Shown piece after piece: positions 11,197-54,300 of a stretch of 64,000 bases of DNA. Each line of letters begins with the position of its first letter. Within the stretch, counting starts at the first letter, position 1. The DNA is from Chitinophagaceae bacterium (GTDB lineage Bacteria > Bacteroidota > Bacteroidia > Chitinophagales > Chitinophagaceae): positions 6,286 through 70,285 of the forward strand of contig CANCPA010000001.1 of the NCBI GenBank assembly GCA_947379895.1, given 5' to 3'. The position numbers and the translations under genes are program-made. The notes beneath the pieces were generated by a model, which worked only from the letters and a program-made list of their open reading frames with translations, was not told the origin of the DNA and searched no databases.

Positions 11197-11280
11197 TCAA
11201 GTTGCAGGTTACAGACAGGTTGCAGGTTTCAAGTTGCAGGTTTCTAGTACTTGAATCCTGCAACTTGAAACTTGAAACTA
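11197..11280. repeat. Inverted heptamer-array element between convergent genes
   Basis: TCAAGTT GCAGGTT ... GCAGGTT TCAAGTT GCAGGTT versus CCTGC AACTTGA AACTTGA AACT. Confidence 0.85.
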
Positions 11281-30827: not shown

Positions 30828-30947
30828 AATAAATATTTTTATTTGTTAATAGAAGACTGTTTGAATAAACAGACATCTTATCTGTTTACATAAGCAGGTG
30901 ATAGTAAAAATTGTTTCTTTTGAGAAAAACGAATTCTTTTCAGTCCT

Positions 30948-31157
30948 TTAAGAGACGTCTTTAAGGAATTAAGAGAACGCTTTAAGATAGTAAGAGAACT
31001 CGTAAGCATATTAAGAGACGACCTAATTAAGCGAAGAGAACTCGTAACTGAGTTAATAGACGATGTAATAGTATTAAGCGATTTCGTAATAAACTAAAGA
31101 GACTACGTAGATGAGTTTGCTGAACTCGTTAGTGAATAAAAAGACGTCTTAATACAA
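30948..31157. repeat. Degenerate tandem array of 10 x 21-bp units
   Basis: Units such as TTAAGAGACGTCTTTAAGGAA, TTAAGAGAACGCTTTAAGATA and TTAAGAGACGACCTAATTAAG. GA is invariant at unit positions 7-8 in all ten units. Confidence 0.9.
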
Positions 31158-38223: not shown

Positions 38224-38359
38224 ATTGGGATAAAAAAACAGTAAATCATCTTTATTCCTATTAATTCACTAATTTTTTATTGCCTACTCAACTTCAACTG
38301 TTATTTTTGCGACTCGTTTTTAAAAAGCAACTATAATTTATCTATAAAAAAAGTATTTG

Positions 38360-39637
38360 ATGCAAAGAGATACAGTGGTTTTTGACTTGATTAAACAAGA
38401 ATTGGAACGTCAACGTCATGGAATAGAATTGATTGCTAGTGAAAACTTTACTTCTCTGCAAGTAATGCAAGCAATGGGAGGAGTGATGACTAATAAATAT
38501 GCAGAAGGATATCCTGGTCGTAGATATTATGCAGGTTGTGAGATTGTGGATCAAACAGAACAATTGGCAATTGATCGATTAAAACAGATATTTAATGTAG
38601 AGTATGCAAACGTTCAGCCTCATAGTGGTGCGCAAGCAAATGCAGCTATTGCCTTAGCCGTTTTACAACCGGGAGATATAACATTGGGTTTAGACCTTAG
38701 TATGGGTGGTCATTTAACTCATGGAAGCCCTGTAAATTATAGTGGTAAACTTTATAACGCAAATTTTTATGGCGTTGTAAAGGAAACAGGATTAGTTGAT
38801 TATGAAATGCTTGAAAAACAAGCCCGCGATTTAAGACCTAAACTTATTATTTGTGGTGCAAGTGCTTATAGCCGTGATTGGGATTATAAAAGAATTCGTG
38901 CTGTTGCCGATGAAGTCGGTGCTTTGGTATGGGCAGATATCGCTCATCCTGCAGGTTTGATTGCAAAAGGTTTATTGAATAGCCCTTTCGAATACTGTCA
39001 TTTTGTAAGTTCAACCACACACAAAACATTACGTGGCCCTCGTGGTGGTGTAATCATGATGGGTAAAGACTTTGAAAACCCTTTTGGACTAAAAGATCCT
39101 AAGGGAAATGTTAGGATGATGAGTAGTTTATTAGATTTGGCTGTTTTCCCTGGAATACAAGGAGGACCTTTGCAACACGTTATTGCAGCAAAAGCAATTG
39201 CCTTTGGCGAAATATTAACTGACGAGTTTTTGGTTTATCAGCAACAAGTACAAAAGAATGCACAAGCAATGGCTAAGGCTTTTGTGGCAAAGGAATACAA
39301 CATCATCAGTGGTGGCACTGATAATCATTTAATGTTAATAGATCTTCGAAATAAGAACATCAGTGGTAAAAAGGCAGAACAAGCTTTGGTAAAAGCAGAT
39401 ATCACTGCTAATAAAAACATGGTTCCTTTCGATGACAAGAGTGCTTTCATCACTAGCGGCATTCGTTTTGGAGTTCCTGCTATAACAACAAGAGGTTTAT
39501 TGGAAGCAGACATGCAATTTGTTGTAGATGCAATTGACAAGGTACTTACTCATGCAGATGATGAAGCTGCAATCTCTTCTGTCAAAAAGCAAGTGAACGA
39601 TTTTATGACTCAATTTAAATTATACCCTGAACTTTAA
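38360..39637 (+). CDS. glyA: Serine hydroxymethyltransferase
   Basis: [23 protein letters not shown]-lysine motif [12 protein letters not shown]. -7 box TATTTTTG at 38302-38309. Confidence 0.98.
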
Positions 39638-39721
39638 TTTTATTGAATATTATAAGCGAAAGTTATAAAGAACCACTTTATAACCATTCAATTACGCCGT
39701 TCAGTTATCAATTGTTAAATT

Positions 39722-40159
39722 ATGATACAACGAATACAATCAATTTGGCTTTTATTAGCTTCTATTTGTGCATTCCTTACTATTAAAGTACATTTTTTCA
39801 TTTTAAGCAGTAGCAATACCTCCGACACAACTAAGGTTGCAAATGGATTTAATTATTTTACTGCCCAAAGTAATGTATTGATTTTTATATTAACAGTGGC
39901 AATTGCACTTGCTTCAATTGTGACAATTTTTCTATATAAGGATCGAAAGAAACAAGTTTTTATAACTAGTTGCATCGCCCTTGGGGCTATTATTAATATC
40001 ATACTTTATTTTGCCCAAATAAAAACTTTTATCGCAGGGCAATATGAATTGTCATTAACCTCATCAATCACTTTTCTTATTCCTCTGTTATTATTACTTG
40101 CCGTAAGAGGGATCTGGAAAGATGAACAATTAGTAAAAAGCGCAGATAGACTGCGGTAG
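39722..40159 (+). CDS. DUF4293 family membrane protein
   Basis: MIQRIQSIWLL N-terminus and DEQLVKSADRLR C-terminus are typical of this Bacteroidota family. Confidence 0.85.
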   Translation: MIQRIQSIWLLLASICAFLTIKVHFFILSSSNTSDTTKVANGFNYFTAQSNVLIFILTVAIALASIVTIFLYKDRKKQVFITSCIALGAIINIILYFAQIKTFIAGQYELSLTSSITFLIPLLLLLAVRGIWKDEQLVKSADRLR

Positions 40160-40260
40160 TTATGCATTATGAGTTTTAAATAGGAGTTAAAACAATAATT
40201 GTCACTCCAATTTTTAATCACGGCTCATATTTCATAACTAATAACTTATTGAAAGAAATT

Positions 40261-41454
40261 ATGCTACATATAAGTAAGAGGGGAAGGGAGATGCCTAATT
40301 CCCCTATTAGAAAATTGGTGCCATATGCTGAATCTGCTGTACAGCGTGGATTAAAGGTTTATTACCTAAACATTGGACAACCTGATATTGAAACGCCTCA
40401 ATTGATGCTAGATGCCGTACGAAATAGTGATTTTAAAATATTAGAGTACGGTCATAGCGCGGGAAACGAAACCTATCGCAAAAAATTAGTAAAGTACTAC
40501 AAAAGTGTCGGTATTGATATCGAATATAATCAGATATTAATCACAACAGGTGGAAGTGAGGCATTGTTATTTGGCTTTATGGCCTGCTTCGATCCGGGTG
40601 ATGAAGTCATCATTCCTGAGCCATTTTATGCCAATTACCATGGTTTTGCTGCGGAAGCAGGTGTAGAAGTTGTAACTGTGACCTCTGATATCTCAACTTC
40701 ATTTGCGTTACCTCCCATCGAAGAATTAGAAAAGAAAATCACGCCTCGCACTAGGGCAATTGTGATCTGTAACCCCAATAATCCTACGGGATATGTTTAC
40801 AGCAAGCAAGAAATGGAACAACTAGGGGAGATGGTTTTGAAACATGATTTGTATTTATTTTGTGACGAAGCTTATCGTGAATTTAATTACGAAGGAGAAA
40901 TACCTACCTCATCTTTAAGCCTTATCGGCGTTGACAACAATGTGATAATGGTAGATACAATTAGTAAAAGATATAGCGCTTGCGGCGGACGAATTGGTGC
41001 ATTTGTTACCCGTAATAAGGAATTGATTGATACTGTCATGAAATTTGCTCAAGCTAGATTATGCCCTCCTGGTTTTGCTCAAATGGCAGGAGAAGCAGCT
41101 CTTGATTTACCTAGCGACTATTTTGATATCACTAAAGCAGAATACAGAAGCAGAAGAGACTTGATTGTATCTAGATTAAATGCAATGGAAGGCGTCAATT
41201 GTCCTATGCCTAGTGGAGCTTTTTACTGTTTTGCAGAATTACCAATTGACGATGCCAATAAATTTTGTCAATGGCTATTAGAGTCTTTTAGTTATAAGAA
41301 TTCTACTGTTATGCTCGCACCTGGACCAGGCTTTTATGCAACACCTGGACACGGAAAAAAGGAGGTTAGGTTTGCTTATGTATTAAATAAAACAGATATT
41401 AATGCCGCAATGGATTGCTTAGAAGAAGCATTGAAAATATATTCTGGCAAATAA
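40261..41454 (+). CDS. PLP-dependent aminotransferase class I/II (aspartate aminotransferase-like)
   Basis: LNIGQPDI, NPNNPTG, DEAYRE and SKRYSACGGRIG motifs. Confidence 0.95.
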   Translation: MLHISKRGREMPNSPIRKLVPYAESAVQRGLKVYYLNIGQPDIETPQLMLDAVRNSDFKILEYGHSAGNETYRKKLVKYYKSVGIDIEYNQILITTGGSEALLFGFMACFDPGDEVIIPEPFYANYHGFAAEAGVEVVTVTSDISTSFALPPIEELEKKITPRTRAIVICNPNNPTGYVYSKQEMEQLGEMVLKHDLYLFCDEAYREFNYEGEIPTSSLSLIGVDNNVIMVDTISKRYSACGGRIGAFVTRNKELIDTVMKFAQARLCPPGFAQMAGEAALDLPSDYFDITKAEYRSRRDLIVSRLNAMEGVNCPMPSGAFYCFAELPIDDANKFCQWLLESFSYKNSTVMLAPGPGFYATPGHGKKEVRFAYVLNKTDINAAMDCLEEALKIYSGK

Positions 41455-41552
41455 ATTGCAAGATGATACTTAACTTATTTTATTTCGCTTTTCAGAAGCA
41501 ACTAAAGTAATAAAAGTATCATCTTTCTTTTTTACAATATATATTTGATTTT

Positions 41553-43037
41553 ATGAAAATGGTTAATAAATATGTCTGCTTTTCCTTTTTAATCTCCCTA
41601 TTTTCTGCTATTTTCTGCTATGAAGCAACTTCTCAAAGCTATAATGCATTTAATGGGTCGGCTTATGCTGGAGTATTAAGTAATTTTATAAACCCTGCTA
41701 GCGCTATAAACACCCCTTATCAATGGGACTTCTCCTTATTGGGTTTACAAACGAATACTTCAAATAGTGGTATCAGTATTGCCAATCTCAATAGGGCTAA
41801 TTTAACGCCCAAAAACATAAAATACATACTTTACCAACCCACAACAGGTTCAGACAATAGGAATATAGACAATTGTTCTGACCTACATTTATTCAACTTT
41901 CGATATGCGTTAGATGAACTTCAAAGTGTCAGTTTTGGGATGCGAGTAAGAACCTGTAATCACATTGGGGCATCTCCTTTTAAATATAATCCTACAATAA
42001 AAGACCTTAATTCATTTTTAAGTTATAATGCTGACAGAAGTAAAATTCCATTTAATCTAAATGTATCAAACGAAGCATGGACTGAAACCGACTTAGGCTA
42101 TTCCCGAATACTTATAGATAATGATGAAAATAGACTATCAGTGGGTGGAACATTACAAATACTGAGGGGCTTATCAGGTGTTGCAATAAACATGTACGAT
42201 ATTACTTATCAGGCAGAACCTAACAGAAACATTTTAACTAGTGGGGGAATAACTAATATTTATTCTGCGAACTATTCTGAAATGGATACCCAATATTCTA
42301 CAATTAAAAATCTACAAAGATTTAAGGCTGCAGCAAAATTTGGAATAGGTGCAAGTTTTGGCTTTGAGTATATTGTTAAGAAAAATATCTTTGACGAACC
42401 CTTTAGCCCTCAAAACTACTATTGGAAATTTGGTGCAAGTATCATGGATATTGGTAGCAACAATTTCAATACAAACAGGTTCTCATTCGATGTAAATACA
42501 CCAAAAGATGGCCTCACTGACACAGCACTAATTAACCGCTTTAATAGTCCTTATGATTCCGTTAGTAATATTACGAACACGTTGTGGCAAACATTTCAAA
42601 AGGGCAGTCACCTAAAATCTACATTTAAGATGAGTTTACCCACTCGTCTAGTCTTGACTATAGATAAGAGTTTGGGAAATGATTTATATGTAAACCTAAT
42701 GGGTAATATTAATTTTTATTCCCATGACATCACTGATATCTATCATGTTAAAGCAGTCGAATTAAATCGCCTTACATTGACTACACGTTGGGAAACTGAA
42801 CATTGGGGAATTTATCTTCCACTTGAATATACTGAAAGAAAGCAAGTACTAATTGGAGGAGCAGTAAAAATTGGACCTTTAGTGGTTGGCTTACACAACT
42901 TGAATTGGCTGAATCACCTTCGACTCGAAGAGTTTGAAGGCGGAGGCTATCTCGCCTTGCATTTTACACCTAAAATTAAAAAGAGACATCACTATCTCGA
43001 TTGTTATGATGGAGCGACAAACGATAAAAGTGAATAG
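41553..43037 (+). CDS. DUF5723-like outer-membrane beta-barrel protein
   Basis: Signal peptide, NPASA motif, alternating aromatic strands, GGAVKIGPLVVG near the C-terminus. Confidence 0.65.
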   Translation: MKMVNKYVCFSFLISLFSAIFCYEATSQSYNAFNGSAYAGVLSNFINPASAINTPYQWDFSLLGLQTNTSNSGISIANLNRANLTPKNIKYILYQPTTGSDNRNIDNCSDLHLFNFRYALDELQSVSFGMRVRTCNHIGASPFKYNPTIKDLNSFLSYNADRSKIPFNLNVSNEAWTETDLGYSRILIDNDENRLSVGGTLQILRGLSGVAINMYDITYQAEPNRNILTSGGITNIYSANYSEMDTQYSTIKNLQRFKAAAKFGIGASFGFEYIVKKNIFDEPFSPQNYYWKFGASIMDIGSNNFNTNRFSFDVNTPKDGLTDTALINRFNSPYDSVSNITNTLWQTFQKGSHLKSTFKMSLPTRLVLTIDKSLGNDLYVNLMGNINFYSHDITDIYHVKAVELNRLTLTTRWETEHWGIYLPLEYTERKQVLIGGAVKIGPLVVGLHNLNWLNHLRLEEFEGGGYLALHFTPKIKKRHHYLDCYDGATNDKSE

Positions 43038-43186
43038 TTGAATTCAATTAAAACCTTTAAGATACAGGTTTAAATAAATTGATTTATCACTCCTTCGTAA
43101 GACTAAACAAAGTAAGTTTCTTATTCTGTTATACATTATTTCACTAAAACTCATAATCAATAGTATTATTTATTTACTTTGTTTCG

Positions 43187-44176
43187 ATGAATTATCTACA
43201 ACTCTTTTATTATGCTTCAGATTATTTTATCCGCATTTATAAACAGCTTGCGTTTATAAAAAGATTTCTACTACCAATTGTTGATGAAGAATGTAATAAA
43301 TTCAATTACCATCCATCAAAGAGAGAAGCAGATAAAATTAAATTTTACTATCCCTTATTCAATCATGTAGTTAATTGTGAAAATTACCTGACCATTAAAA
43401 ATCGTGGTCTTTCGAAAATTGAAACAGAACGTTTAGGGTATATTAGTGTTTGGGCAACTCTTTATGACGACTTTATAGACGAAGAAAAATGGAGTAAAGA
43501 AAAACTAAAAAAAATATTTGAGAAAACACTTCCTCATCAGGAGAGAACGCCAAAGATGCAGGTGTTTATGGCAATGGATGATAAATTAAAAAAAATATTT
43601 ACGCCAACACAATTTTATACAAGCAGCCTGAAATTAGCAATAGATTGGCAGATAGTTTCTTCTATTCAATTAAACAGTACAATCACATTAAAAGAGGTAT
43701 TACATATTTCGGATGTTAAATGTGGTAATAGTTCTCTGTTATGGTCTAGTATTTTAGATGAAGATTGGTCGGAAAAAGATAAGAGGCTTATTTATCAAAG
43801 TGGATATGTGGGGCAACTTGTCAATGATGCATTTGATGCATTTAAAGATATTCAAGATGGAGGCTATACCTATATAAGAAAGACTAATTCGATAGCTGAG
43901 GCGATTGAAATTTTTCTTGACGCTTGTACAATACTCAATCAAACGATTATGAGTTGTGATGCTCCATTAAAGTATCGCTTAAAAACAATTAGACGAATGG
44001 CATGTATTCATGCTTTTGGATTTGTTGCCTTACAGCACCTTGAAGCAATTGATAAGAAATATCCAAAACCAATTGATTGGCATAAGGTGGAACGCCGTGA
44101 TTTAATAACAGATATGGATTTGTGGAGAAACAGGTTAAGAATCTTTAAAAATGCGGTCTTTTTATCTAGACTTTAG
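43187..44176 (+). CDS. Class I isoprenoid synthase/terpene synthase-fold protein
   Basis: Two aspartate-rich motifs, LYDDFIDE and GQLVNDAFDAFKD, about 120 aa apart in a helical protein. Confidence 0.7.
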   Translation: MNYLQLFYYASDYFIRIYKQLAFIKRFLLPIVDEECNKFNYHPSKREADKIKFYYPLFNHVVNCENYLTIKNRGLSKIETERLGYISVWATLYDDFIDEEKWSKEKLKKIFEKTLPHQERTPKMQVFMAMDDKLKKIFTPTQFYTSSLKLAIDWQIVSSIQLNSTITLKEVLHISDVKCGNSSLLWSSILDEDWSEKDKRLIYQSGYVGQLVNDAFDAFKDIQDGGYTYIRKTNSIAEAIEIFLDACTILNQTIMSCDAPLKYRLKTIRRMACIHAFGFVALQHLEAIDKKYPKPIDWHKVERRDLITDMDLWRNRLRIFKNAVFLSRL

Positions 44177-44336
44177 TTTAGTTGAATTAAACAAGAAATC
44201 AGTTTTGCCTTATAAATTCTACGAAATAAGTGTTTTGACTAAATACTAATTAAAATAAATTTAATTAGGGATATTACATATAACCTTTAACTTATAAGGT
44301 AACCCTAACATTATACACCTCAAACCAAAAACTTCT

Positions 44337-44891
44337 TTAATTGTATTGCGGATCAAGTGGATAATTAACCATTAATTTATACTCTCCGTCAAGTTCTCGC
44401 AAAGCATCTTTCCAAATATTTTCTGGTTGTGTTTTAAATAGAATTCGTTTACTTGCATTGGACAAAATCCAACTCTTATCGCTAATTTCATCTTCAAGTT
44501 GCCCTTTTCCCCAACCACTATACCCAACAAAAAAGCGTATTTGGTGTGATTCTATTTGCTCACTCTTTAAAGATTCAAATACCTCTCTAAAATCACCTCC
44601 CCAATAAACCCCATTAATAATTTCGATTCCTCCTGAAATTAATTGAGGACACTGATGAATAAAATGTAAAGTATTTGTTTGAACAGGTCCACCATAAAAA
44701 ACAGGAAAATCATTCCCATAAAGGTCATCAATCAAATCGCCTAAAACATGTTCTTGTTGTCGGTTCAATGCAAACCCAAAACTACCATCATCTTGATGGT
44801 CACAAATCAAAACAACAGTCCTTACAAAGTTGGGATCTTTCAAAAAAGGATCAGAAATAAGCAAGGTGCCGGGATTAATAATTCTTTCCAT
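44337..44891 (-). CDS. YqgE/AlgH family protein
   Basis: F.RTVVLICDH...GSFGFALN, GGPV and FFVGYSGWGKGQLEDE motifs. Confidence 0.95.
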   Translation of the reverse strand: MERIINPGTLLISDPFLKDPNFVRTVVLICDHQDDGSFGFALNRQQEHVLGDLIDDLYGNDFPVFYGGPVQTNTLHFIHQCPQLISGGIEIINGVYWGGDFREVFESLKSEQIESHQIRFFVGYSGWGKGQLEDEISDKSWILSNASKRILFKTQPENIWKDALRELDGEYKLMVNYPLDPQYN

Positions 44892-45004
44892 AGGAGAAAA
44901 GTAAGGAAATTATTTTAAATATTATAACAAATACACCGTTAATTTGTATGTAAAGCTATAATTTATATTTCAGTAGCACTATTCAGTGTTTATATTTGCC
45001 CCCG

Positions 45005-46339
45005 ATGAAGAAAACTTTACCCATCATTGTAATATTAACTTCGCTTTCATTGCTTGGTTTAATGATACTTCAGGCATCATGGCTCAACAATTTGTTGACA
45101 CTTCGTCGTGGGCAATTAAATAATAAAATAAATGAAGCAGGCGTTTCTGTGGCAGTAGAATTATACAATGCCACAGCAACAACTCCGAGCTTAAAAGTGA
45201 AACCATCTTTTGGTTTTAACAGATTTGGGCGCAATATCCCAATGCTATTAAATCCTCCAACTGTTGAGGAGAAATTCAATATTGAAGACATTCATAAGAA
45301 ACTAGAAAGAGCATTTAAAAAACAAGAACTACAAGATATCAAGTTCGAATTTGCTGTGATTAATAGCAGTGAGGACTTTGAAATGAAGACACAGAATTTC
45401 GAAGAAGCCTATTGGGACACTGTATCTAACAAGAGACTTTTTGTGGGAATTGGCCCCGAGTCTGCTGCCGATTTGGAAGGTATTAGTGCTCCTGAACATC
45501 TGATTATTATTGTACCAGATTTTACAAAACAGATTTGGGGATCGTTACGTTGGGTAATTTTGGGCGCAAGTGCATTTATGCTTGTTATAATTGCTGCTTT
45601 CTTTGTAACACTTCGTACACTATTTAATCAAAAGAAACTTGGAGAAATAAAGAGTGACTTCATAAATAACATGACGCATGAATTTAAAACGCCTATTGCA
45701 ACAATTTCGTTAGCAGTAGATGCACTTAGAAATGAAAAAGTTCAAAACGACAAAGAAAAACTAAACTACTTTACAAGTATAATTAAGGAAGAGAACAAAA
45801 GAATGAACAGGCATGTGGAGAGTATTTTACAAGCAGCCTTGCAAGAAAAACAAGAACTGCAATTAAAGCTCACTTTTATTCATATTAATGAATTGATTGC
45901 AAATATCCTCGACACTTTTGTATTGCAACTAGATGAAAAAAATGGTGAAGTTGAAATTAATTTAAATGCCAAAGACGACTTATTAAAGGTTGATTCGGTT
46001 CATTTTACTAATATGTTTTCCAATTTAATAGACAACGCTATTAAATACAGTGCTGATAATGTTCGTATTAAAGTAACGACTCAAACTACCCATAACTTTT
46101 TGACTATCATTGTACAAGACCATGGAATTGGAATGAGTAAGGAAAATAGCAAACGGATTTTCGAAAAGTTCTATCGCGTACATACCGGAAATGTTCACAA
46201 TGTAAAAGGCTTTGGATTGGGAATGAGCTATGTTAAAATGGTAGTTGATTCGCATAAAGGAAAAATAAAAGTGGATAGTACACTCGGTAAAGGAACTACT
46301 TTTACAATAGAAATACCCCGAAAAATTGAAGATAAATAG
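45005..46339 (+). CDS. Membrane sensor histidine kinase (RprX-like)
   Basis: Two TM segments, H-box NMTHEFKTPIATI, N-box NLIDNAIKY, G1/F/G2 boxes (DHGIG, IFEKFYRV, GFGLGMS). Confidence 0.95.
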   Translation: MKKTLPIIVILTSLSLLGLMILQASWLNNLLTLRRGQLNNKINEAGVSVAVELYNATATTPSLKVKPSFGFNRFGRNIPMLLNPPTVEEKFNIEDIHKKLERAFKKQELQDIKFEFAVINSSEDFEMKTQNFEEAYWDTVSNKRLFVGIGPESAADLEGISAPEHLIIIVPDFTKQIWGSLRWVILGASAFMLVIIAAFFVTLRTLFNQKKLGEIKSDFINNMTHEFKTPIATISLAVDALRNEKVQNDKEKLNYFTSIIKEENKRMNRHVESILQAALQEKQELQLKLTFIHINELIANILDTFVLQLDEKNGEVEINLNAKDDLLKVDSVHFTNMFSNLIDNAIKYSADNVRIKVTTQTTHNFLTIIVQDHGIGMSKENSKRIFEKFYRVHTGNVHNVKGFGLGMSYVKMVVDSHKGKIKVDSTLGKGTTFTIEIPRKIEDK

Positions 46340-46449
46340 TTACACCTATTTTGAATTGATACTAAAAGTTAAATCACATCTTTAGTTAAAAAATTAAATA
46401 TTTAGGGCAAAATATTTTTTTATAAATTGCCGACACGAAACACATCTAA

Positions 46450-47208
46450 ATGAAATATTTTATTGCTACATATATTTTACTTTATTCATTTTGTACACAA
46501 ATACACGCTCAAGCAAGATTGTCTGTTGGAATTAAAGCAGGTACAAATACGCCCGGATTGGGCATTAACAGTTCTGACCCTGTAATTGATGGCTTTAAAA
46601 CTATTTTAGAGCCTTACTATGGCATTGTATTAGAAACAGGCTTGAACAAAAAATGGTCGTTACTTACAGAAGTTAATTACGCAATTTTAGGCATCACAAA
46701 AAACGGAAGTCAAGTAGTGCCAAAAAGTACTTATACTGGCTATGAATTTGGTACACTTATTTTACCCGAACATGTGTATGCTAATTTTTACAGCAAAATA
46801 GAGCTTAATTATATCGAAATACCATGTATGCTGAAATATAATTTCTATCAAAATAAAAAACTAAACATCTTTTTTAATGCAGGCCCGTCAGTGAGTGTAT
46901 TGCTCAACGCCAAAGTGAATACCTCAGGTAAAGGGAAAATTTATTCGGACGAAGCTCATAAAACTACTATTACACCATTCAACTTTTCATTTATTCATGA
47001 AACAGATCTCACCGATTGGTTTAATCCACTCAATTTTGCATTTCAAGGAGGGGCTGGATTAACTTACAAAACTCATACTGGAGATTTTTTTGTAAATCTA
47101 GAGGGCAATATTGGCTTAATGAAAATACAAGCAGGTAATGGAGATGGTTCAAACAATACAAAGGCATTAAACCTTTCTGTGGGATATCTATACCATATTT
47201 GGCAATAA
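46450..47208 (+). CDS. Porin family outer-membrane beta-barrel protein (PorT-like)
   Basis: Signal peptide, GIKAG start, LNYIEIP motif, terminal LSVGYLY strand. Confidence 0.85.
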   Translation: MKYFIATYILLYSFCTQIHAQARLSVGIKAGTNTPGLGINSSDPVIDGFKTILEPYYGIVLETGLNKKWSLLTEVNYAILGITKNGSQVVPKSTYTGYEFGTLILPEHVYANFYSKIELNYIEIPCMLKYNFYQNKKLNIFFNAGPSVSVLLNAKVNTSGKGKIYSDEAHKTTITPFNFSFIHETDLTDWFNPLNFAFQGGAGLTYKTHTGDFFVNLEGNIGLMKIQAGNGDGSNNTKALNLSVGYLYHIWQ

Positions 47209-47441
47209 AAGGCTGAGTTAAAATACGAATGTATAATTGTTACATTTTGTGCTCATAAACTTAGACAAACAAATTATTTGAATTAGCTATAATTTGTTGA
47301 AAAATGATAATGCAGATAAAAGGTATGAATAATTAACTTTACTATTTAGTCTATTGTAGCCACTCATTTTCAAATTTATAATTTACTACCCCATTTTTCA
47401 TAGAACGTCTTGTGTGTAAAAGGGAAAGAGTTTCGCAGAAT

Positions 47442-47630
47442 TTCAATTATTTCATCGAGGATTTCCAATATCTGTACCGGACCTTCGAAAGTCGAAATTA
47501 GGCTTTCGAAGGTCCGGTACAGATATTGGAAAAAAAATGACTTTTCTTATATTTTCTCCATCAATAATTCTATTCCCAGAATATGACTTTCGAAGAAATC
47601 AGCGACATATTCTAAGACAATTGACTAACA
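47442..47630. repeat. Cryptic 21-bp-periodic array (9 units)
   Basis: TT(C)NAW recurs at 47442, 47463, 47484, 47505, 47526, 47547, 47568, 47589 and 47610. TT, the position-5 A and the position-6 W are present in 9/9; position-3 C in 7/9. Confidence 0.65.
47462..47532. repeat. Perfect 30-bp inverted repeat with an 11-nt loop
   Basis: TTTCCAATATCTGTACCGGACCTTCGAAAG-TCGAAATTAGG-CTTTCGAAGGTCCGGTACAGATATTGGAAA. Confidence 0.97.
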
Positions 47631-47771
47631 ATTCAATATTTTGTCACTTTTTAGCTCTTTTTATGTTAATGTTTTGCCTTTTAGAAATAATACTTGTTCT
47701 TTCAAGCAAATACTCCTTGTATTAACGTAGTTTCACTGAGTTACAATAAAAAAATGTAATAACAACGAACG

Positions 47772-48437
47772 ATGACATTACATATGTTAGTCTCCCGTGA
47801 ATATAAAAAAAAGAATACAGTTGATAAAGTTCCATTTTATCAAAACATTCATGACCTGATGAGCAAAACAGGATCTCTTTTTGCCGATCCTCTCGTAACC
47901 TATATAATAGGTAATACTCAAATTGGCAATTTCCGAAGCGCCTATGGTATTGCACAGAGTCATGCAATTGGAACTGCTTCTTTGATGCATGATGCAGAAG
48001 GCATTTGTGAAGCAACAATAGATATTTGGGCAGATTATGTAGATCGTGTTGCGAAGGGGTCAAAGTCAATCATTGAATCAGCAGGTTTCAAAGCTACGGC
48101 TGGAGAATCTACTCCGGGTAAAGTTACAGATCAACCTGTAATTGAAACTGTAAACCCAAATGTAGAAGGTGTTATGAATTTTGAAGTTGAATTGTTGGAG
48201 GGAAAAGAAAATGTATTTAATATAATTGTGGCTACCGACCTTTCGGGTGTGTCACAAGCAGGAAATGAAGTTATTTTCGCACCTATTGCAGGCGTTACCT
48301 ATTATACGGCCTCATCAATGCAAAGGAAAATAAGCATGGGTGGACTGCCAAAGACTATATTACTTTATGCACTTTGCTATTCTACAAACAGGGCCGGGAA
48401 CAGTGTATTAAGTAAAATTATTCACTTTAGTTGTTAG
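47772..48437 (+). CDS. Uncharacterised 221-aa protein, helical N-terminus plus Ig/FN3-like C-terminus (gene B)
   Basis: Clean ORF with its own terminator; no signal peptide. Contains 'VAKGSKSIIESAGF', a Pro linker and a beta-rich C-terminus ending LYALCYSTNRAGNSVLS. Confidence 0.75.
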   Translation: MTLHMLVSREYKKKNTVDKVPFYQNIHDLMSKTGSLFADPLVTYIIGNTQIGNFRSAYGIAQSHAIGTASLMHDAEGICEATIDIWADYVDRVAKGSKSIIESAGFKATAGESTPGKVTDQPVIETVNPNVEGVMNFEVELLEGKENVFNIIVATDLSGVSQAGNEVIFAPIAGVTYYTASSMQRKISMGGLPKTILLYALCYSTNRAGNSVLSKIIHFSC

Positions 48438-48489
48438 CATTAGCTGAGAAGAGTCTATTTTAAATTACAATTTTAGTTTTGATTAAATT

Positions 48490-48524
48490 AAACCGTTGAC
48501 ATGAACGAATGTCGACGGTTTTTT
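48490..48524 (+). terminator. Intrinsic terminator of gene B
   Basis: AAACCGTTGACAT-GAACGA-ATGTCGACGGTTT followed by a T-run. Confidence 0.85.
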
Positions 48525-48722
48525 CATTTTAACCCAGATTACAGCTACTATCAAATTGAGGAAATTAGCGTAAATTGAAATATATCAATTAATATGTTGA
48601 CTACTTAAACACCCTCTATTTGGTTACTCTAAGTACATACATTGTTCATTAACAGGTAGTAAATACTGTTTCACCGAAAAGTTGATTCTATAAACTAAAG
48701 TTTTCAATCAGGTAAATATCTT

Positions 48723-48737
48723 TGGCATCGGGTTTGA
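48723..48737 (+). promoter_or_regulatory. Putative sigma54 (-24/-12) promoter
   Basis: TGGCATCGGGTTTGA has the exact GG-N10-G spacing of TGGCACN5TTGC, with A in place of the final C. Confidence 0.5.
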
Positions 48738-48747
48738 GATATTAATA

Positions 48748-48830
48748 GAATAAAATCAGACATTAAAGTTATTATCATAAATAGTTAGTTTTGGTTGCGG
48801 CTCCGATTTTTATCGGGGCCAATTTTTTTT
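48748..48830 (+). ncRNA. Candidate ~80-nt small RNA
   Basis: Lies between the sigma54-like promoter and the terminator GGCTCCGAT-TTTT-ATCGGGGCC-AA-T8 (48799-48830). Contains no ATG; has TTAGTTTTGGTTG just before the stem. Confidence 0.4.
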
Positions 48831-49338
48831 AGCCCCCTATAATCGAAATTTCATAATAAAGTGGATAAGAATGATCTATTAAAAAAAAGGTTTCATTTTA
48901 AGGTGATTATACTCGATGCAAACTCAGAATTAAAAAGAAAAATAAGAGCATCTATAAATAACCAGCAGTTAAGTATCAGAAATAAGTTCTGTTCAATCTG
49001 ATTCTTAGTACAAAACCTAGTACCTGTAGAGGTAAAACCACCTTAATAGTATTGGAAATGAAAAAGTATTTCAGCTATTTTTATTGAGATAAAATAACAA
49101 ATCAAGGTAGATTCAAACTAAACAAACTAATTATTTAATTTGAAGTAGACTTAGATTGGTATAATGTACAATTAATTAAACTTGTTTTGAAGAGAAAGAA
49201 ATAGTATTCTATAAAATTAATAATGGACATACTTTATCAACTTTTCTTTATATAAATCAGTTTTTGAGAGGAATAAAACATCGTTTTGTTAATAAAACGC
49301 ACTTATTATTAGGATTTTGTCAAACTTGGAACGTTTTA

Positions 49339-49371
49339 TTTGGAATATTAGCTGTCAATCCTATACATTTG
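49339..49371 (+). promoter_or_regulatory. Housekeeping -33/-7 promoter of rimP-nusA-infB
   Basis: TTTG (49339-49342), 21-bp spacer, TACATTTG (49364-49371). Confidence 0.8.
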
Positions 49372-49386
49372 CACAAATAAGCAACT

Positions 49387-49411
49387 GAAGGGAACGATAA
49401 CCGTTCCCTTC
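49387..49411 (+). promoter_or_regulatory. rimP 5' leader hairpin
   Basis: Perfect 10-bp stem GAAGGGAACG-ATAAC-CGTTCCCTTC between the promoter and ATG 49425. Confidence 0.6.
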
Positions 49412-49424
49412 TTCTTTATACATA

Positions 49425-49892
49425 ATGGCAGTAGATATTGTAAAACAAATAGAAGATTGGTTACACGGAGTATTTACCGACAACCCTACATTGTTTTTGG
49501 TTAGCATAAAAGTGAAGCCTACAAACAACATTAAAGTATTTATTGACGGAGATGAAGGATTCCCGATAGATATGTGCGTTCGCATCAATAGAAAGCTTTA
49601 TAAATTGATTGAAGAAAACGGTTTTTATCCTGAAGGAGACTTTAGTCTTGAGGTTTCAAGTCCAGGACTCGGAGAACCTTTAAAACTTCATAGACAATAC
49701 ACAAAAAACATTGGAAGGGACATAGAAGTGGTTTTCACTGATTCAAGCATTAAAGAAGGAAAACTGATTGCAGTAGCCGAATCAGATATTATCATCGAAC
49801 AAACAGAGGGAAAAGGTAAAAAAGCAATAGTTCAACAAATAGTGATTCCTTTAAGTAACATAAAATCAACAACAGTTCAAATAAAATTTTAA
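49425..49892 (+). CDS. rimP: Ribosome maturation factor RimP
   Basis: FSLEVSSPGLGEPL...RQY.KNIGR motif; position upstream of nusA. Confidence 0.95.
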   Translation: MAVDIVKQIEDWLHGVFTDNPTLFLVSIKVKPTNNIKVFIDGDEGFPIDMCVRINRKLYKLIEENGFYPEGDFSLEVSSPGLGEPLKLHRQYTKNIGRDIEVVFTDSSIKEGKLIAVAESDIIIEQTEGKGKKAIVQQIVIPLSNIKSTTVQIKF

Positions 49893-49924
49893 AGTATCAA
49901 TTAGAAATAAAGACTTTTTAGATT

Positions 49925-51178
49925 ATGGCAAGTATTAACTTAATAGATGCGTTTCAGGATTTCAAGGATGAAGAAAAGTTAGATCGTCTCACTATGATGA
50001 AATTGGTTGAGGATGTTTTTAAAACATTACTCAGAAAGAAATATGGTAGCGACGAAAACTTTGATGTAATTGTAAATGCTGAAAAAGGGGATTTAGAAAT
50101 TATCCGTAGAAGAATGATTATGGATGATGACGATGTAAATGACCCATTAGCAGAAGTTGCATATTCGGAAGCGACTAAAATTGAGCCCGATTTTGAAGTG
50201 GGAGAAGAACTATACGAAGAAGTTGATATGCTTGACTTCGGTCGTAGGGCAATCCTAGCTGCTAAACAAACTCTTGCAGGCAGGATTAGCGAAATGAAGA
50301 AAACAGTCTTAATTAAAAAATACGAAGACAGAATAGGAGAAATTATTTCGGCTGAGATTTATCAGGTTTGGAAGAAAGAAGTTTTATTACTTGATGAAGA
50401 AGGTAATGAATTAATTCTGCCTAAATCAGAACAAATTCCTAACGACTTTTATAAAAAAGGAGATAATGCTAGGGCTGTTATTATTAGAGTTGATGTAAAA
50501 AACAACAATCCTGTTATCATACTTTCTAGAACTAGTCCTTTATTTTTAGCTAAACTATTAGAAATAGAAGTTCCTGAAATTTATGATGGCTTAATAGCTA
50601 TCAAGAAAATTGTTCGTGAACCAGGAGAAAGAGCAAAAGTTGCAGTAGAAAGCTACGATGATAGAATTGATCCTGTAGGTGCTTGTGTGGGTATGAAGGG
50701 TAGCAGAATTCACGGCATAGTTAGAGAATTAAAGAATGAGAATATCGACGTGATTAATTTTACTAACAATGTTCAATTATTAATTCAACGTTCATTAACG
50801 CCTGCGAAGATCAGTTACATGAAAATTGACGAAGAACGCAAACAAGTAGATGTTTATTTGAAAGCAGACCAAGTTTCATTAGCGATAGGAAGACGAGGCG
50901 TAAACATTAAATTGGCTTGCGAATTGACAGGTTACGAAATTGATGCATTCCGTGAAGATGAAGAACAAACTAGTGAGTTTGACATTGACTTGGATGAATT
51001 TGTAGATGAAATAGAACCTTGGGTTATCGATGAATTCAAGCGTGTAGGTTGTGATACTGCTAGAAGTGTATTGTCATTAACACCTAGTGAATTAGAAAGA
51101 AGAACTGACCTCGAAAAAGAAACAATTGCCGATGTTATTAAGGTTCTAAAGGAAGAATTTGAAAGAGAAGAGGAATAA
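49925..51178 (+). CDS. nusA: Transcription termination/antitermination factor NusA
   Basis: S1 and KH domains (REPGERAKVAV, DPVGACVGMKGSRI, AIGRRGVNIKLA). Confidence 0.98.
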   Translation: MASINLIDAFQDFKDEEKLDRLTMMKLVEDVFKTLLRKKYGSDENFDVIVNAEKGDLEIIRRRMIMDDDDVNDPLAEVAYSEATKIEPDFEVGEELYEEVDMLDFGRRAILAAKQTLAGRISEMKKTVLIKKYEDRIGEIISAEIYQVWKKEVLLLDEEGNELILPKSEQIPNDFYKKGDNARAVIIRVDVKNNNPVIILSRTSPLFLAKLLEIEVPEIYDGLIAIKKIVREPGERAKVAVESYDDRIDPVGACVGMKGSRIHGIVRELKNENIDVINFTNNVQLLIQRSLTPAKISYMKIDEERKQVDVYLKADQVSLAIGRRGVNIKLACELTGYEIDAFREDEEQTSEFDIDLDEFVDEIEPWVIDEFKRVGCDTARSVLSLTPSELERRTDLEKETIADVIKVLKEEFEREEE

Positions 51179-51327
51179 TCTTCGTTTTTTTAAGTTTAGA
51201 AGGTTACTTTGTGGTTGTTAAAGGTATAAAAAATAGATACTACCATGTAAAAGAAGAAGTTTTTTTGTAACAAAATAATATACAAACGATTATACTAAGG
51301 TATAATCTGTGGATTAAAAAGCACTGA

Positions 51328-54300
51328 ATGTCAGAATTGAAATTACCTAGATTATTGGCTGCGGCTAAAGAGTTTAATGTTGGGCAAGATACCCTAATAG
51401 ACTTTTTGGCAAAAAAAGGATTCAATAAAGAAGAATTGAAGCCTGCTGCAAAGCTTACTGAACCTATGTACTATGCTTTGCAAGGTGAGTTTCAGAACGA
51501 TAAGCAGGCAAAAAACAAGGCTGATTTGGTCGAAATACCTAAAAGCCAACAAAATGAAAGGAGAAAACGTGATGAAGAAGATCTTTCTTTTAGAAAAGAT
51601 TTCAAGAAACCTCTTTTCAAAGAAGAGCCTACGAAAGCAGACAATGATGTAGTTGTTCCTTCAGGAAAACCTGTTTCGGAAGTTGAAAATAAAGTGATCC
51701 CTCAAGCAACCTTACCTGTAGTAGAAAAGGTAGCACCGGGTGTAATTTGGGATGAAATTAATAAAGTTCAAGAAACGCCAAAAGTTGTAGTAGACAATTG
51801 GGGTTCTGTCGTTAAAATTGAAGCTCCTGAATTAGAAGGACCTAAGATTTTAAGTAAGATAGACTTATCTGCGATTGATTCATCTACAAGACCAAGAAAG
51901 GCTTCACCACGTCAAGAAGAAGAAAAGGTAGAAGCACCAAAAGAATCGGTTGTTTCTCAACCTACAACTCCGGTTTCAGTACCTTCTCCACCGGTACAAG
52001 AAGTAGTAGCGCCAATCGTCACAGTTGAGCCTGTAAAGGAAGTTGTTAAAGAAACCCCTCCTGTAGTTAAAGAAGTAGTAGCAGAAGTATTGGAACAAAA
52101 AGCACCTGCTATTGAACCAATTATTACTTCGCCAAAGCCTACTGCGGAGATACCTGCTGTAGAAACGCCTATAATTGCGGCAGCACAAGTTCATTTTGAA
52201 GAAAGTATTTCTACAATTAGTCCTGTTGCAACAGAAGAAGCACCTCTAATAGAAAATATTCAGGCTGAAAAGTTAACGGGACCAAAGATTTTAGGAAAAA
52301 TTGAGCTACCAGTTGATAGTGATACAAGACCTAAACCTTCTAGTGCCGAGGACAAGAAAAAGAGAAAAAGAATACCTGTTGATAATAGAAAAGTTGGTGG
52401 TGGACATCGTCCTCATCATCCTAGCAACCAAGGGTTTAATCAAGGGCAACATCCAAATCATGGTCAAGCCATTGGTCAAGGGCATCATCCTAATCAAGGA
52501 TTTAATCCAAATCAAGGTCAAAGTACTGGTCAAGGACATCATCCAAGTCAAGGATTCCATCCAAATCAAGGTCAGAATCAAGGACATGGTCATTTTCAAA
52601 ACAGAGGACCTTATCAAAATAATCAAGGAGGATTTAACAGAGATCGTGAAAATAGACCTGTAGGTTCTCCAAATCAACATCCAAATCATCCACCTCAAGC
52701 ACCTGGAACAGGTACAACAAGACCAATTGTTCCTGCAAACAATCGTGGTGGTGGATCAGGAGGTGGTGGATTTAATAGAGATAATCGTGGTGCAGGAGGT
52801 GGTGGCTATAACCGTGGTGCAGGAGGCGGTCGCGGTGGTAATCGTAGAGATGATAAGGAAATAGATGCAAAAGAAATTCAAGATAAGATAAAAGAAACAC
52901 AAGCAAAACTTGCTGGTGGAGGTGGACGTGGAAAAAGCTTGAAGGCAAAATACCGTAGAGCAAAGAGAGAAGAAGCCGCCGAAGCAATGGGCGACATGGA
53001 GGGAGAAGACAACAAACTACAAGTAACTGAGTTTGTTACTGTAAGTGAGTTGGCTAACTTAATGGACGTTAGTTTTGCTGATGTGATTGGCAAGTGTATG
53101 GGTCTTGGAATCATGGTTAGTATAAATCAACGTCTTGATGCAGAAGTTATCGAATTGGTAGCGAGTGAATTTGACTATGAAGTTGAATTCCTAGGCGTTG
53201 ATGATATTGAAGAAATGGACGAAGATGAGGAAGAGGAAGAAGCTGCTGAAGCTGAAACTCGTCCTCCAATTGTTACAATCATGGGTCACGTCGATCATGG
53301 TAAGACTTCCTTATTGGATCATATACGTAGTGCAAATGTTGTGGCTGGAGAAGCAGGTGGTATCACACAGCACATTGGGGCTTATGAAGTAACGCTTCCT
53401 AATGGCAAAGCGATTACATTCTTGGATACTCCTGGTCACGAAGCGTTTACTGCGATGCGTGCTAGAGGTGCTAAAGTAACGGATATTGCTGTTATTGTTG
53501 TTGCAGCAGACGATGCGGTGATGCCTCAAACAAAAGAAGCAATCAGTCACGCACAAGCTGCAGGTGTTCCAATGATATTTGCAGTAAACAAGATTGATAA
53601 GGATGGAGCTAATCCTCAAAAAATATATGAACAACTAGCCGGTATGAATATATTGGTAGAAAGTTGGGGTGGTAAATATCAAAGTCAAGAATTATCCGCT
53701 AAAAAAGCAATAAATGTTGATTTGTTATTAGAAAAGATATTGCTTGAAGCAGAATTATTAGATGTGAAAGCAAATCCAAAAAAAGATGCCACAGGTTCGA
53801 TAATTGAAGCATCATTGGACAAAGGACGTGGTTACGTTGCTACCATACTTGTTCAAAATGGTACGCTACGTCAAGGCGATTTGTTAGTTTCAGGTCAACA
53901 TTATGGTCGTGTAAAGGCAATGTTTAATGAACGTAATCAACGAGTTAATGAAGCACCACCATCAACACCTGTAGTTATATTAGGCTTGAATGGTGCGCCA
54001 CAGGCAGGAGAAAAATTCAAGGTATATCAAGATGAAGGAGAAGCTAAGGAAGTAGCAACTAAACGTGCACAGATTTCTCGTGAACAAGGTCTTCGTGCTA
54101 GAAAACACATTACTTTAGATGAAATTGGTCGTCGTTTGGCACTTGGTAACTTTAAAGAATTAAATATTATCATTAAGGGGGATGTGGATGGTTCGGTAGA
54201 AGCATTGAGTGATTCGTTACAAAAACTATCTAATCAGGAAATTGCAATTCGAGTAGTTCACAAGGCTGTAGGTCAAATTTCTGAAAGTGATATCTTGTTA

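What the first reader, a model, noticed from the sequence alone, without database searches (positions are those of the whole stretch)
47442..47630. Hidden 21-bp phasing with a 30-bp perfect palindrome locked in register
Seen: a quasi-palindromic hexamer (TTCAAT, TTCCAA, TTCGAA, TTCGAA, TTGGAA, TTATAT, TTCTAT, TTCGAA, TTCTAA) recurs every 21 bp for nine units. The 30-bp inverted repeat (47462-47532) is centred so that both arms keep the phase. The remaining bases per unit are divergent, so ordinary tandem-repeat finders may miss it. Inference: same-face binding sites spaced two helical turns apart, with the palindrome formed by strand switching between phased sites or serving as a hairpin or recombination substrate.
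Basis: partly seen in the sequence, partly recalled or inferred. Interest (0 to 1): 0.65.

Follow-up and report, generated by a model that had tools for sequence, protein, structure and literature searches.

The report
Decayed 21-bp array before orphan gene
The faint 21-base rhythm and the perfect hairpin are real: they are the worn-down version of a private repeat array that sits in front of every relative of the neighbouring unknown gene, part of an apparently undescribed rule in this bacterium, whose intergenic repeats of more than 14 bases nearly all come in units of 21, 42 or 63.

Summary
Both parts of the observation hold. The palindrome has perfect 30-bp arms (47462-47491 / 47503-47532). 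Nine hexamers keep a 21-bp register, and this register survives in-register deletion of half or all of the palindrome (z 5.0 and 3.6; 0/300 shuffles).

Context gives the meaning. The region is the 5' part of a ~1.3-kb cassette inserted between a porin gene and rimP. The cassette carries a 221-aa protein with no family match, made of a helical domain plus an FN3 domain.

- All 17 homologous loci examined carry their own array with period 21, 42 or 63 at the same upstream position.
- So do 10 of 12 paralogues in this genome, against 19% of control genes.
- This Chitinophagaceae genome holds about 170 such arrays with unrelated sequences.

This locus is the most decayed example.

A second assembly has the same palindrome with one mismatch. 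That mismatch is the only difference in 15 kb. A sister cassette shows a clustered change that makes a perfect hairpin. Both fit template-switch mutation.

The neighbouring protein does not look DNA-binding. My best guess is a same-face, multi-dimer binding platform upstream of the promoter.

The scan has met this class before on other DNA. I found no paper describing it.

The parts
47385..48653 (+). Inserted cassette: array, leader, orphan gene and terminator
   Evidence: In four genus mates the porin gene and rimP are 360-410 bp apart. The conserved sRNA-like element that follows the porin stop there equals window 48654-48835. The left edge is taken from where homology to the G015/L024 cassettes begins.
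47387..47396 (+). TACCCCATTT block at the 5' edge of the cassette
   Evidence: G015 and L024 become 97% identical to each other exactly from this motif onward. G000 shares it (16/23 identity around it).
47442..47630 (.). Nine units in a 21-bp register (TTCnAA-type hexamer at the start of each unit); a decayed array
   Evidence: It is positionally equivalent to the clear 21/42/63-bp arrays of the homologues.
47462..47532 (.). Palindrome with perfect 30-nt arms (47462-47491 / 47503-47532) and an 11-nt loop
   Evidence: It is unique in the genome. No T-run follows it on either strand.
47477..47477 (.). Variable base in the left arm: C here (perfect palindrome), T in an independent assembly (one mismatch)
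   Evidence: It is the only difference between the window and ENA contig L063 across 37784-52706. The homologous position also differs C/T between G015 and L024.
47480..47493 (.). Dyad core 1, GACCTTCGAAAGTC
   Evidence: Read from the sequence (repeats I10, I16, D5).
47501..47514 (.). Dyad core 2, GGCTTTCGAAGGTC, with its centre 21 bp from core 1
   Evidence: D5, spacing 21.
47585..47598 (.). Dyad core 3, GACTTTCGAAGAAA, with its centre 84 bp (4 x 21) from core 2 and lying outside the palindrome
   Evidence: D4 with spacing 84; I10 with 11/11 complementarity.
47650..47674 (+). Conserved leader block (TTTAGCT..TTTATGTTAA..), shared by the eight aligned loci (only weakly in the 44%-identity L018)
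   Evidence: It occurs only once in the genome.
47728..47735 (+). -7-like promoter box TAGTTTCA (TAGCTTTG in G015/L024), 44 nt before the ATG
   Evidence: A TAnnTT(T/C)(G/A) box lies at a fixed distance from the ATG in 14 of 18 loci. Reading it as the Bacteroidota TAnnTTTG element is inference from established knowledge.
47740..47760 (+). Short hairpin with an A-rich loop just before the start codon; it covaries across loci (GTTACA/TGTAAC, GTTACC/GGTAAC, GTTGCA/TGCAAC)
47772..48437 (+). 221-aa orphan protein P0001: N-terminal helical domain plus C-terminal FN3 domain
   Evidence: No Pfam, NCBIfam, PHROG or PADLOC family. The model has pLDDT 94.5. FN3 matches come from sequence profile and fold searches.
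48491..48525 (+). Hairpin followed by a T-run after the gene (likely intrinsic terminator)
   Evidence: Read from the sequence.

Best explanation
The region is the eroded and rearranged remnant of a 'private' tandem array with a 21-bp register. That array forms the 5' part of a small, self-contained cassette.

The cassette runs: array, then a conserved leader with a Bacteroidota-type promoter, then a 221-aa helical+FN3 orphan gene, then a terminator. It was inserted between the porin gene and rimP.

Shown:
- The register is present here.
- The same architecture occurs at every homologue and at most paralogues examined.
- The cassette is an insertion.
- The array lies upstream of the promoter-like box.
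- The dyad core is conserved between orthologous arrays while the spacers diverge.

Inferred:
- The dyad cores, spaced at multiples of two helical turns, are binding sites for dimers of a still unidentified DNA-binding factor. The dimers would line up on one face of the helix and set the activity of the downstream promoter.
- In this lineage most units have decayed, leaving three recognisable TTCGAA-centred cores.
- The long perfect palindrome is a secondary product. Adjacent dyad units form a quasi-palindrome, and replication template switching copied one arm onto the other. This automatically keeps both arms in register.
For: The register is significant with and without the palindrome.

Family-wide pattern:
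- 17 of 17 other homologous or paralogous loci have their best autocorrelation lag at 21, 42 (41/43) or 63 (62), between about -130 and -430 (-600 at L014) from the ATG. Each has its own unit sequence.
- In this genome 10 of 12 paralogues have a strong array of this class, against 28 of 150 control genes.

Selection on the core: L027 and L029, whose proteins are 75% identical, share the core GTT(T/G)TAAAAC but have different spacers. The L028 core CTTTGCAAAG and the G000 core CTTTCGAAG are variations on the same T-rich/A-rich dyad.

Cassette status: the insertion is shown by synteny.

Promoter position: a promoter-like box sits at a fixed distance downstream of the array in 14 of 18 loci.

Palindrome dynamics:
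- The sole difference from an independent contig in 15 kb is in the left arm.
- A 25-bp cluster of changes creates a perfect 15-bp hairpin in L024 but not in G015.
- The left arm aligns to G015 at 63%, while the right arm aligns at the chance level of 33%.
- Template-switch homogenisation of inverted-repeat arms is an established mechanism (PMC7202029, PMC5941160, PMC8604942).
Against: - No binding factor has been identified. The only cassette gene encodes a helical+FN3 protein with no DNA-binding signature.
- Genome-wide, 21-class arrays are spread over convergent, tandem and divergent intergenic regions roughly as the background is. Some lie next to ordinary genes, for example between a GNAT gene and asnS at 2584-2837. 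They are therefore not strictly promoter elements.
- Only part of the units genome-wide have a clear palindromic core: 9 of 97 with at least 12 paired nt, against 1 expected.
- The array is badly decayed here yet the gene is intact, so a complete array may be dispensable.
- The promoter assignment is by motif only.
- The left-arm homology is only marginally significant (24/500 shuffles).
Confidence: 0.55

Rival explanations
1. Functionless minisatellite remnant. The 21/42/63-bp arrays are neutral or selfish slippage products. Their period is fixed by the mechanism that makes them, or by a filter that tolerates only whole numbers of double helical turns. This locus is simply one decaying copy, and the palindrome is a mutational accident.
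For: - The arrays occur in all types of intergenic region at background proportions, including convergent ones.
- Their sequences are unrelated.
- This copy is decayed while its gene stays intact.
- The palindrome differs between two assemblies.
Against: - Nearly all members of one protein family carry an array at the same upstream distance: 17/17 homologous loci and 10/12 paralogues, against 19% of controls.
- The core is conserved between orthologous arrays while the spacers diverge.
- Dyad cores are enriched.
Confidence: 0.22
2. The palindrome itself is the functional element. It would be a hairpin or cruciform acting as a transcription barrier against read-through from the porin gene, or as a structure-specific recombination site used to move the cassette. 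The weak phasing would be secondary.
For: - The hairpin is very stable.
- The sister cassettes (G015, L024, L025) also carry 11-15-bp hairpins at -190 to -370, about 63 bp apart.
- The cassette is evidently mobile, since homologues sit in different genomic contexts.
Against: - No U-tract follows the hairpin on either strand, and the terminator scan found nothing.
- The palindrome is unique in the genome, and its arm sequence is absent from both collections scanned.
- It lies about 75 bp inside the cassette, not at an edge.
- More distant homologues have plain 21-bp direct arrays without long hairpins.
- No recombinase gene is nearby.
Confidence: 0.1
3. RNA-level function. The array would be transcribed and act as repeated RNA units, like the antitoxin repeats of type III toxin-antitoxin loci, or as a structured leader controlling the orphan protein.
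For: - A private repeat array directly upstream of a private protein gene is the layout of toxIN-type loci. An earlier scan note (e1-4537487) named these as the closest known.
- The unit sequence tracks the protein clade.
Against: - The conserved -7-like box lies downstream of the array.
- No terminator lies between the array and the gene.
- Periods are strictly multiples of 21, a property of DNA geometry and not of RNA.
- Core variants break hairpin pairing but keep the DNA half-sites.
- The protein is FN3-type, with no PADLOC or ToxN-like match.
- No Rfam family reaches its gathering threshold.
Confidence: 0.08
4. Chance pattern in AT-rich DNA plus one real palindrome.
For: - The raw lag-21 autocorrelation is not significant once the palindrome is masked.
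- The signal ranks only in the top 17% of this genome's intergenic regions.
- The pattern was chosen after the fact.
Against: - The column-information test gives 0/300 shuffles even without the palindrome, and 21 is the best period.
- The period and position match what all homologues show.
Confidence: 0.05

Closest known systems
Plasmid and phage iterons with an inverted-repeat operator (e.g. F oriS/repE, pPS10, R6K, lambda ori; from established knowledge)
   Same: Private 17-22-bp repeats occur at about 21-22-bp spacing on one helical face, directly upstream of a gene. They are often accompanied by an inverted-repeat version of the same motif. The repeat sequence co-varies with the element.
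   Different: - There is no initiator: the adjacent protein is helical+FN3, not a winged-helix Rep.
- The setting is chromosomal, with about 170 arrays in one genome.
- There is no evidence of replication function.
Tandem-repeat partition centromeres and operator arrays (sopC of F: 12 x 43 bp each with a 16-bp inverted repeat; parC of pSK41: 20-bp repeats; omega heptad arrays of pSM19035; ARG boxes: 18-bp dyads 3 bp apart; from established knowledge)
   Same: Dyad-symmetric cores are repeated at two or four helical turns and are bound co-operatively by dimers. The ARG-box pair has exactly the 21-bp centre-to-centre geometry of cores 1 and 2 here.
   Different: - No parA/parB or repressor gene is adjacent.
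- The binding protein is unknown.
- The array is decayed.
- The arrays are attached to an orphan-gene cassette family.
BrickBuilt minisatellite/MITE of Porphyromonas gingivalis (PMC4596501)
   Same: It is found in Bacteroidota, is intergenic, is a spacer-less tandem repeat of about 2 helical turns (23 nt), and influences transcription of its neighbours.
   Different: BrickBuilt is one sequence family present 19 times, with leader and tail parts and inverted-repeat ends. Here every array has a private sequence, the period is 21/42/63, and this copy is unique in the genome.
Quasi-palindrome template-switch mutation (PMC7202029, PMC5941160, PMC8604942)
   Same: It explains how imperfect inverted repeats become perfect through clustered multi-base changes. 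This matches the L024/G015 difference and the single arm polymorphism.
   Different: It is a mutational mechanism, not a functional class. It accounts for the palindrome but not for the array.
Type III toxin-antitoxin loci (toxIN, cptIN, tenpIN; from established knowledge)
   Same: A private tandem repeat array sits immediately upstream of a single private protein gene.
   Different: The repeats there are 34-45 nt, transcribed, and cut by an endoribonuclease toxin. Here the promoter-like box is downstream of the array, the period follows DNA helical geometry, and the protein is FN3-type.
Heptamer tandem repeats (cyanobacterial STRR; TAACTGA repeats, PMC4679880)
   Same: They are abundant intergenic tandem repeats in some Bacteroidota. 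This genome also has 131 period-7 and 101 period-14 arrays.
   Different: Those are 7-nt units. Here the 7/14-bp arrays behave differently from the 21-class: they are depleted in divergent intergenic regions.

Membership tests
Private 21-bp-register array + helical/FN3 orphan-gene cassette (a class seen by this scan on other DNA; no paper found) | Tandem array with period 21, 42 or 63 bp about 130-430 bp upstream of the gene | tested here: met
   Weak but significant at this locus. Strong at 17/17 other loci and at 10/12 paralogues in this genome.
Private 21-bp-register array + helical/FN3 orphan-gene cassette (a class seen by this scan on other DNA; no paper found) | Gene of about 206-246 aa with an N-terminal helical domain and a C-terminal FN3 domain, and no known family | tested here: met
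Private 21-bp-register array + helical/FN3 orphan-gene cassette (a class seen by this scan on other DNA; no paper found) | Unit sequence private to the locus | tested here: met
   No second copy in the genome. The arm sequence is absent from genome contigs and metagenome contigs. The units differ at every homologue.
Plasmid/phage iterons | Adjacent initiator gene (winged-helix Rep) that binds the repeats | tested here: not met
   The only cassette gene is helical+FN3. The neighbours are a porin gene and rimP.
Plasmid/phage iterons | Direct repeats of 17-22 bp at about two helical turns | tested here: met
Type III toxin-antitoxin | ToxN/AbiQ-type endoribonuclease toxin | tested here: not met
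   No PADLOC hit. The fold is FN3 plus a helical bundle.
Type III toxin-antitoxin | Repeats transcribed from an upstream promoter, with a terminator between repeats and toxin gene | tested here: inconclusive
   The -7-like box lies downstream of the array and no terminator was found between them.
BrickBuilt-type minisatellite MITE | The same repeat family dispersed at many loci, with leader/tail parts and inverted-repeat ends | tested here: not met
   Unique in the genome.
REP/BIME or MITE palindromes | Many dispersed copies of the palindrome | tested here: not met
   Only a self-match was found.
Intrinsic terminator | GC-rich hairpin followed by a U-tract | tested here: not met
   The scan found none. 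The hairpin is followed by A8 on the + strand and by mixed sequence on the - strand.
Partition centromere (sopC/parC type) | Adjacent parA/parB-type genes | tested here: not met
ARG-box-type tandem dyad operator | Two dyads with centres 21 bp apart | tested here: met
   Cores at 47480-47493 and 47501-47514.
ARG-box-type tandem dyad operator | Match to the ArgR box consensus and linkage to arginine genes | not tested
   No arginine genes are nearby. The consensus was not scored.

The most novel reading that the evidence does not exclude
The 21/42/63-bp arrays are a new class of bacterial cis-element. They would be helically phased, sequence-private binding platforms that travel with orphan helical+FN3 genes and also occur alone, read by an unknown factor or family of factors. 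One candidate is the cassette protein's own helical domain, acting as a new DNA-binding fold. On this reading the palindrome polymorphism shows such arrays being remodelled by template switching within a population.
Probability: 0.35. Interest if true: 0.8.

Novelty: new variant of a known kind. Interest (0 to 1): 0.6.

Why it matters
If the arrays are binding platforms, this Chitinophagaceae lineage uses a regulatory or architectural DNA element that no described system explains. There are about 170 arrays per genome, each with its own sequence, all locked to two, four or six helical turns.

One orphan protein family carries such an array almost without exception. That pairing gives a direct experimental handle: use the array as bait and the gene as read-out.

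This particular locus adds two things:
- It shows what the element looks like when it decays, since three dyad cores and the register outlive the repeats.
- It catches a long palindrome differing by a single base between two assemblies. This is a natural example of quasi-palindrome dynamics inside such an array.

Tried and rejected
- TRF on the locus found no array.
- Rfam gave only sub-threshold miRNA-like matches to the hairpin, which are meaningless in a bacterium.
- The terminator scan found none; promoter-like sigma-70 hits were at the chance level.
- A dispersed-repeat or MITE reading was rejected: the region is unique in its genome. The arm is absent from genome contigs and metagenome contigs.
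- Coding was rejected. The small ORFs 47410-47586 and 47537-47725 have no family, and the homologous regions are non-conserved repeats.
- The raw autocorrelation test with masking lost significance. It was superseded by the more sensitive column-information test.
- The conserved leader block is not a genome-wide motif.
- Arrays that share a core (AGTACT, CACGTG and others) are not next to homologous genes.
- Array-facing genes are not generally about 220 aa. They do include several multi-copy families without Pfam domains.
- The locus A protein (30162-30827) shows no detectable sequence relation to P0001.
- The first structure model (11 sequences) was too poor to use. The 50-sequence model was used instead.
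- The evidence that the left arm is ancestral and the right arm new is only suggestive.
- Literature searches found no description of 21-bp phased arrays in Bacteroidota.

Full report
**1. The observation**

The region lies in a 563-bp gap between an outer-membrane beta-barrel gene (46450-47208, +) and a 221-aa ORF (47772-48437, +).

Stacked in that register, positions 1, 2 and 5 are invariant (T, T, A), and position 3 is C in 7 of 9 units.
- The inverted repeat has perfect 30-nt arms at 47462-47491 and 47503-47532. As single-stranded DNA it folds at -36 kcal/mol, z = -14.8.
- Two pairs of hexamers are mirror images across the palindrome centre (47497). The nine hexamers therefore amount to seven independent sites.
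- TTCGAA is self-complementary and lies 10.5 bp from the centre. Its mirror copy therefore reads as a direct repeat 21 bp away.

**2. Is the pattern more than chance?**

- Raw lag-21 autocorrelation is the top lag (z = 4.2) but drops to z = 1.7 when the whole palindrome is masked.
- A column-information statistic at fixed period is more sensitive. It gives z = 7.8 for nine units, z = 5.0 after removing the mirror half in register, and z = 3.55 after removing the entire palindrome in register. No shuffle out of 300 reached the observed value in any of the three tests. Period 21 was the best of periods 15-27 each time.
- The register therefore exists outside the palindrome, although it is weak. 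TRF does not see it.
- Three dyad-symmetric cores stand out: GACCTTCGAAAGTC, GGCTTTCGAAGGTC and, outside the palindrome, GACTTTCGAAGAAA. Their centres are 21 and 84 bp apart.

**3. Comparative evidence**

The 221-aa protein (P0001) has no Pfam, NCBIfam, PHROG or PADLOC family. It belongs to a small family of very constant length, with 58 representative clusters among 1.8 billion proteins.

I collected 17 other loci: seven from metagenomes or a sister MAG at 44-85% identity, and ten more distant paralogues from genus mates.

- Every locus has a tandem array upstream of the gene. The best autocorrelation lag is 21, 42 (41/43) or 63 (62), between about -130 and -430 (-600 at L014) from the ATG, and each array has its own unit sequence.
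- L029 has ten units with core GTTTTAAAAC. L027 has nine units with the same core but a different spacer. L028 has seven units with core CTTTGCAAAG.
- The L027 and L029 proteins are only 75% identical. The shared core with diverged spacers therefore points to constraint on the core.
- The three cassettes closest to G000 (G015, L024, L025) have about 63-bp units, each carrying an 11-15-bp hairpin.
- Within G000 an iterative HMM finds 12 paralogues of 206-246 aa. Ten have a strong array of this class upstream, against 28 of 150 control genes with long upstream gaps. The P0001 locus itself has best lag 21, just below my threshold.

The locus under study is thus the most decayed member of the set.

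**4. Genome-wide picture**

A relative's record title places the genus in Chitinophagaceae. The genome is 34.5% GC.

- TRF finds 128 arrays of period 21, 35 of period 42, 14 of period 41 and 6 of period 63. It also finds 131 of period 7 and 101 of period 14, but none at 28, 35, 49 or 56.
- By autocorrelation, about 170 of 1260 long intergenic regions have a strong best lag at 21, 41, 42 or 63.
- Unit sequences are unrelated to one another.
- Dyad cores of at least 12 paired nt occur in 9 of 97 units, against 1.0 expected.
- The 21-class arrays are spread over divergent, tandem and convergent gaps much as the background is. The 7/14-bp arrays avoid divergent gaps.
- Two further 21-bp arrays lie in the same window. 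One is at 2584-2837, between a GNAT gene and asnS. The other is at 30948-31157, in front of another 221-aa orphan gene.

**5. The cassette**

In four genus mates the porin gene and rimP are 360-410 bp apart. That gap contains a conserved sRNA-like element equal to window 48654-48835. G000 carries about 1.45 kb extra between the porin stop and that element.

- G015 and L024 are 97% identical to each other starting exactly at a TACCCCATTT block, which G000 also has at 47387-47396. I take this block as the left edge.
- Downstream of the array there is a conserved block at 47650-47674 that is unique in the genome.
- A TAnnTT(T/C)(G/A) box lies at a fixed distance from the ATG in 14 of 18 loci (47728-47735 here). 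It resembles the Bacteroidota -7 promoter element; this reading is inference from established knowledge.
- A short hairpin that covaries across loci precedes the start codon.
- A hairpin plus T-run follows the gene.

On this reading the array lies upstream of the promoter.

**6. The protein**

With a 50-sequence alignment the model reaches pLDDT 94.5. It shows an N-terminal helical domain (residues about 9-103) and a C-terminal FN3 domain. The FN3 assignment is confirmed by profile search against PDB sequences and by Foldseek.

Some phage proteins share the two-domain layout. Nothing suggests DNA binding, and by my count the N-domain is near neutral in charge.

**7. The palindrome**

An independent ENA metagenome contig (L063) covers window 37784-58437 with 24 differences. 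Only one falls in the 15 kb from 37784 to 52706. It is at 47477 in the left arm: C here, giving a perfect palindrome, and T there, giving one mismatch.

- This confirms that the palindrome is real.
- The chance that a single random difference lands in the 60 arm bases is about 0.4% (my arithmetic).
- In the sister pair G015/L024, ten or so changes cluster in 25 bp and create a perfect 15-bp hairpin in L024 only.
- The left arm of G000 aligns with G015 at 63%, the same level as the conserved leader. The right arm aligns at 33%, which is chance level. This last point is only suggestive.

These are the hallmarks of quasi-palindrome template-switch mutation (PMC7202029, PMC5941160, PMC8604942). 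A palindrome centred midway between two phased dyad cores keeps the register automatically. 'Locked in register' is therefore a geometric consequence and not a separate signal.

**8. Mechanism**

My best reading (confidence 0.55) is as follows. The array is a multi-site platform for dimers of an unidentified factor, bound on one helical face upstream of the cassette promoter. This copy has decayed to three cores. The palindrome is a by-product.

Rivals:
- A functionless minisatellite remnant (0.22).
- The hairpin itself as a transcription barrier or recombination site (0.10).
- A transcribed, type III TA-like repeat RNA (0.08).
- Chance (0.05).

The strict 21/42/63 rule and the conserved cores argue for a DNA-level, protein-read element. 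The even spread over intergenic types and the lack of any candidate reader argue against a simple promoter-operator model.

**9. Comparison with known systems, and limits**

- Iterons, sopC/parC centromeres and ARG-box pairs share the geometry. They fail on the defining partner proteins.
- BrickBuilt (PMC4596501) fails on sequence privacy.
- Type III TA fails on the toxin fold and the promoter position.

Earlier notes of this scan describe the same class on other DNA: e1-4537487, e1-4218830, e1-3960604, e1-2229622 and e1-4602657. My analysis reached the same picture independently before I read them. I found no paper that describes it.

Noticed in passing
window 48654-48835: A conserved element lies upstream of rimP. 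It has a TGGCAT..TTTGA -24/-12-like motif, then about 60 nt, then a GC-rich hairpin plus T8. It is 71-83% identical in at least five genus mates and is present in three tandem copies in G001 (L047). It looks like a conserved small RNA gene.
   Followed up: partly
whole genome G000 (e.g. window 10479-10512, 11197-11279): There are 131 period-7 and 101 period-14 tandem arrays. They are mostly intergenic and strongly depleted in divergent gaps (4 of 94, against 23% for the background), so they tend to lie downstream of genes. They form a different class from the 21-bp arrays.
   Followed up: partly
window 2584-2837: A strong 21-bp array (unit AACTTATAAGTTAAGCGACGC, about 12 units, with 42- and 63-bp super-periods) lies between a GNAT acetyltransferase gene (-) and asnS (+). 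It has no orphan gene attached.
   Followed up: partly
window 30162-31157: A second 221-aa orphan gene (- strand) has a 21-bp array 120 bp upstream. It has no detectable sequence similarity to P0001 by BLASTP or hhalign.
   Followed up: partly
window 47477 and L021/L024 homologous position: The same C/T difference (CCGG versus TCGG) occurs at the homologous position in two independent cassette pairs. The genome encodes three C5-cytosine methyltransferase loci (PF00145). Deamination of a methylated CCGG is a possible alternative source of the polymorphism.
   Followed up: partly
G000 contigs C150, C260, C400, C42, C97 (about 303-341 aa) and C21, C29, C332 (about 318 aa): Other multi-copy protein families with no Pfam domain also have their start codons facing 21-, 41- or 42-bp arrays.
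   Followed up: partly
window 57260-57525: Eighteen of the 24 differences between the window and the independent contig L063 cluster in 266 bp of an amidase gene. This looks like a recombination tract.
   Followed up: no
L021 (G015:C560) about 700-1000: A long imperfect inverted repeat (CAAGGGTTGAAA... / ...TTTCAACCCTTG) with internal short palindromes lies upstream of the sister cassette. It may be a MITE-like element.
   Followed up: no
window 52451-52574: An 18/54-bp tandem repeat lies inside the infB coding region, presumably a repetitive N-terminal region of IF-2.
   Followed up: no
window 16106-29650: A single ORF of 4514 aa lies on the - strand.
   Followed up: no
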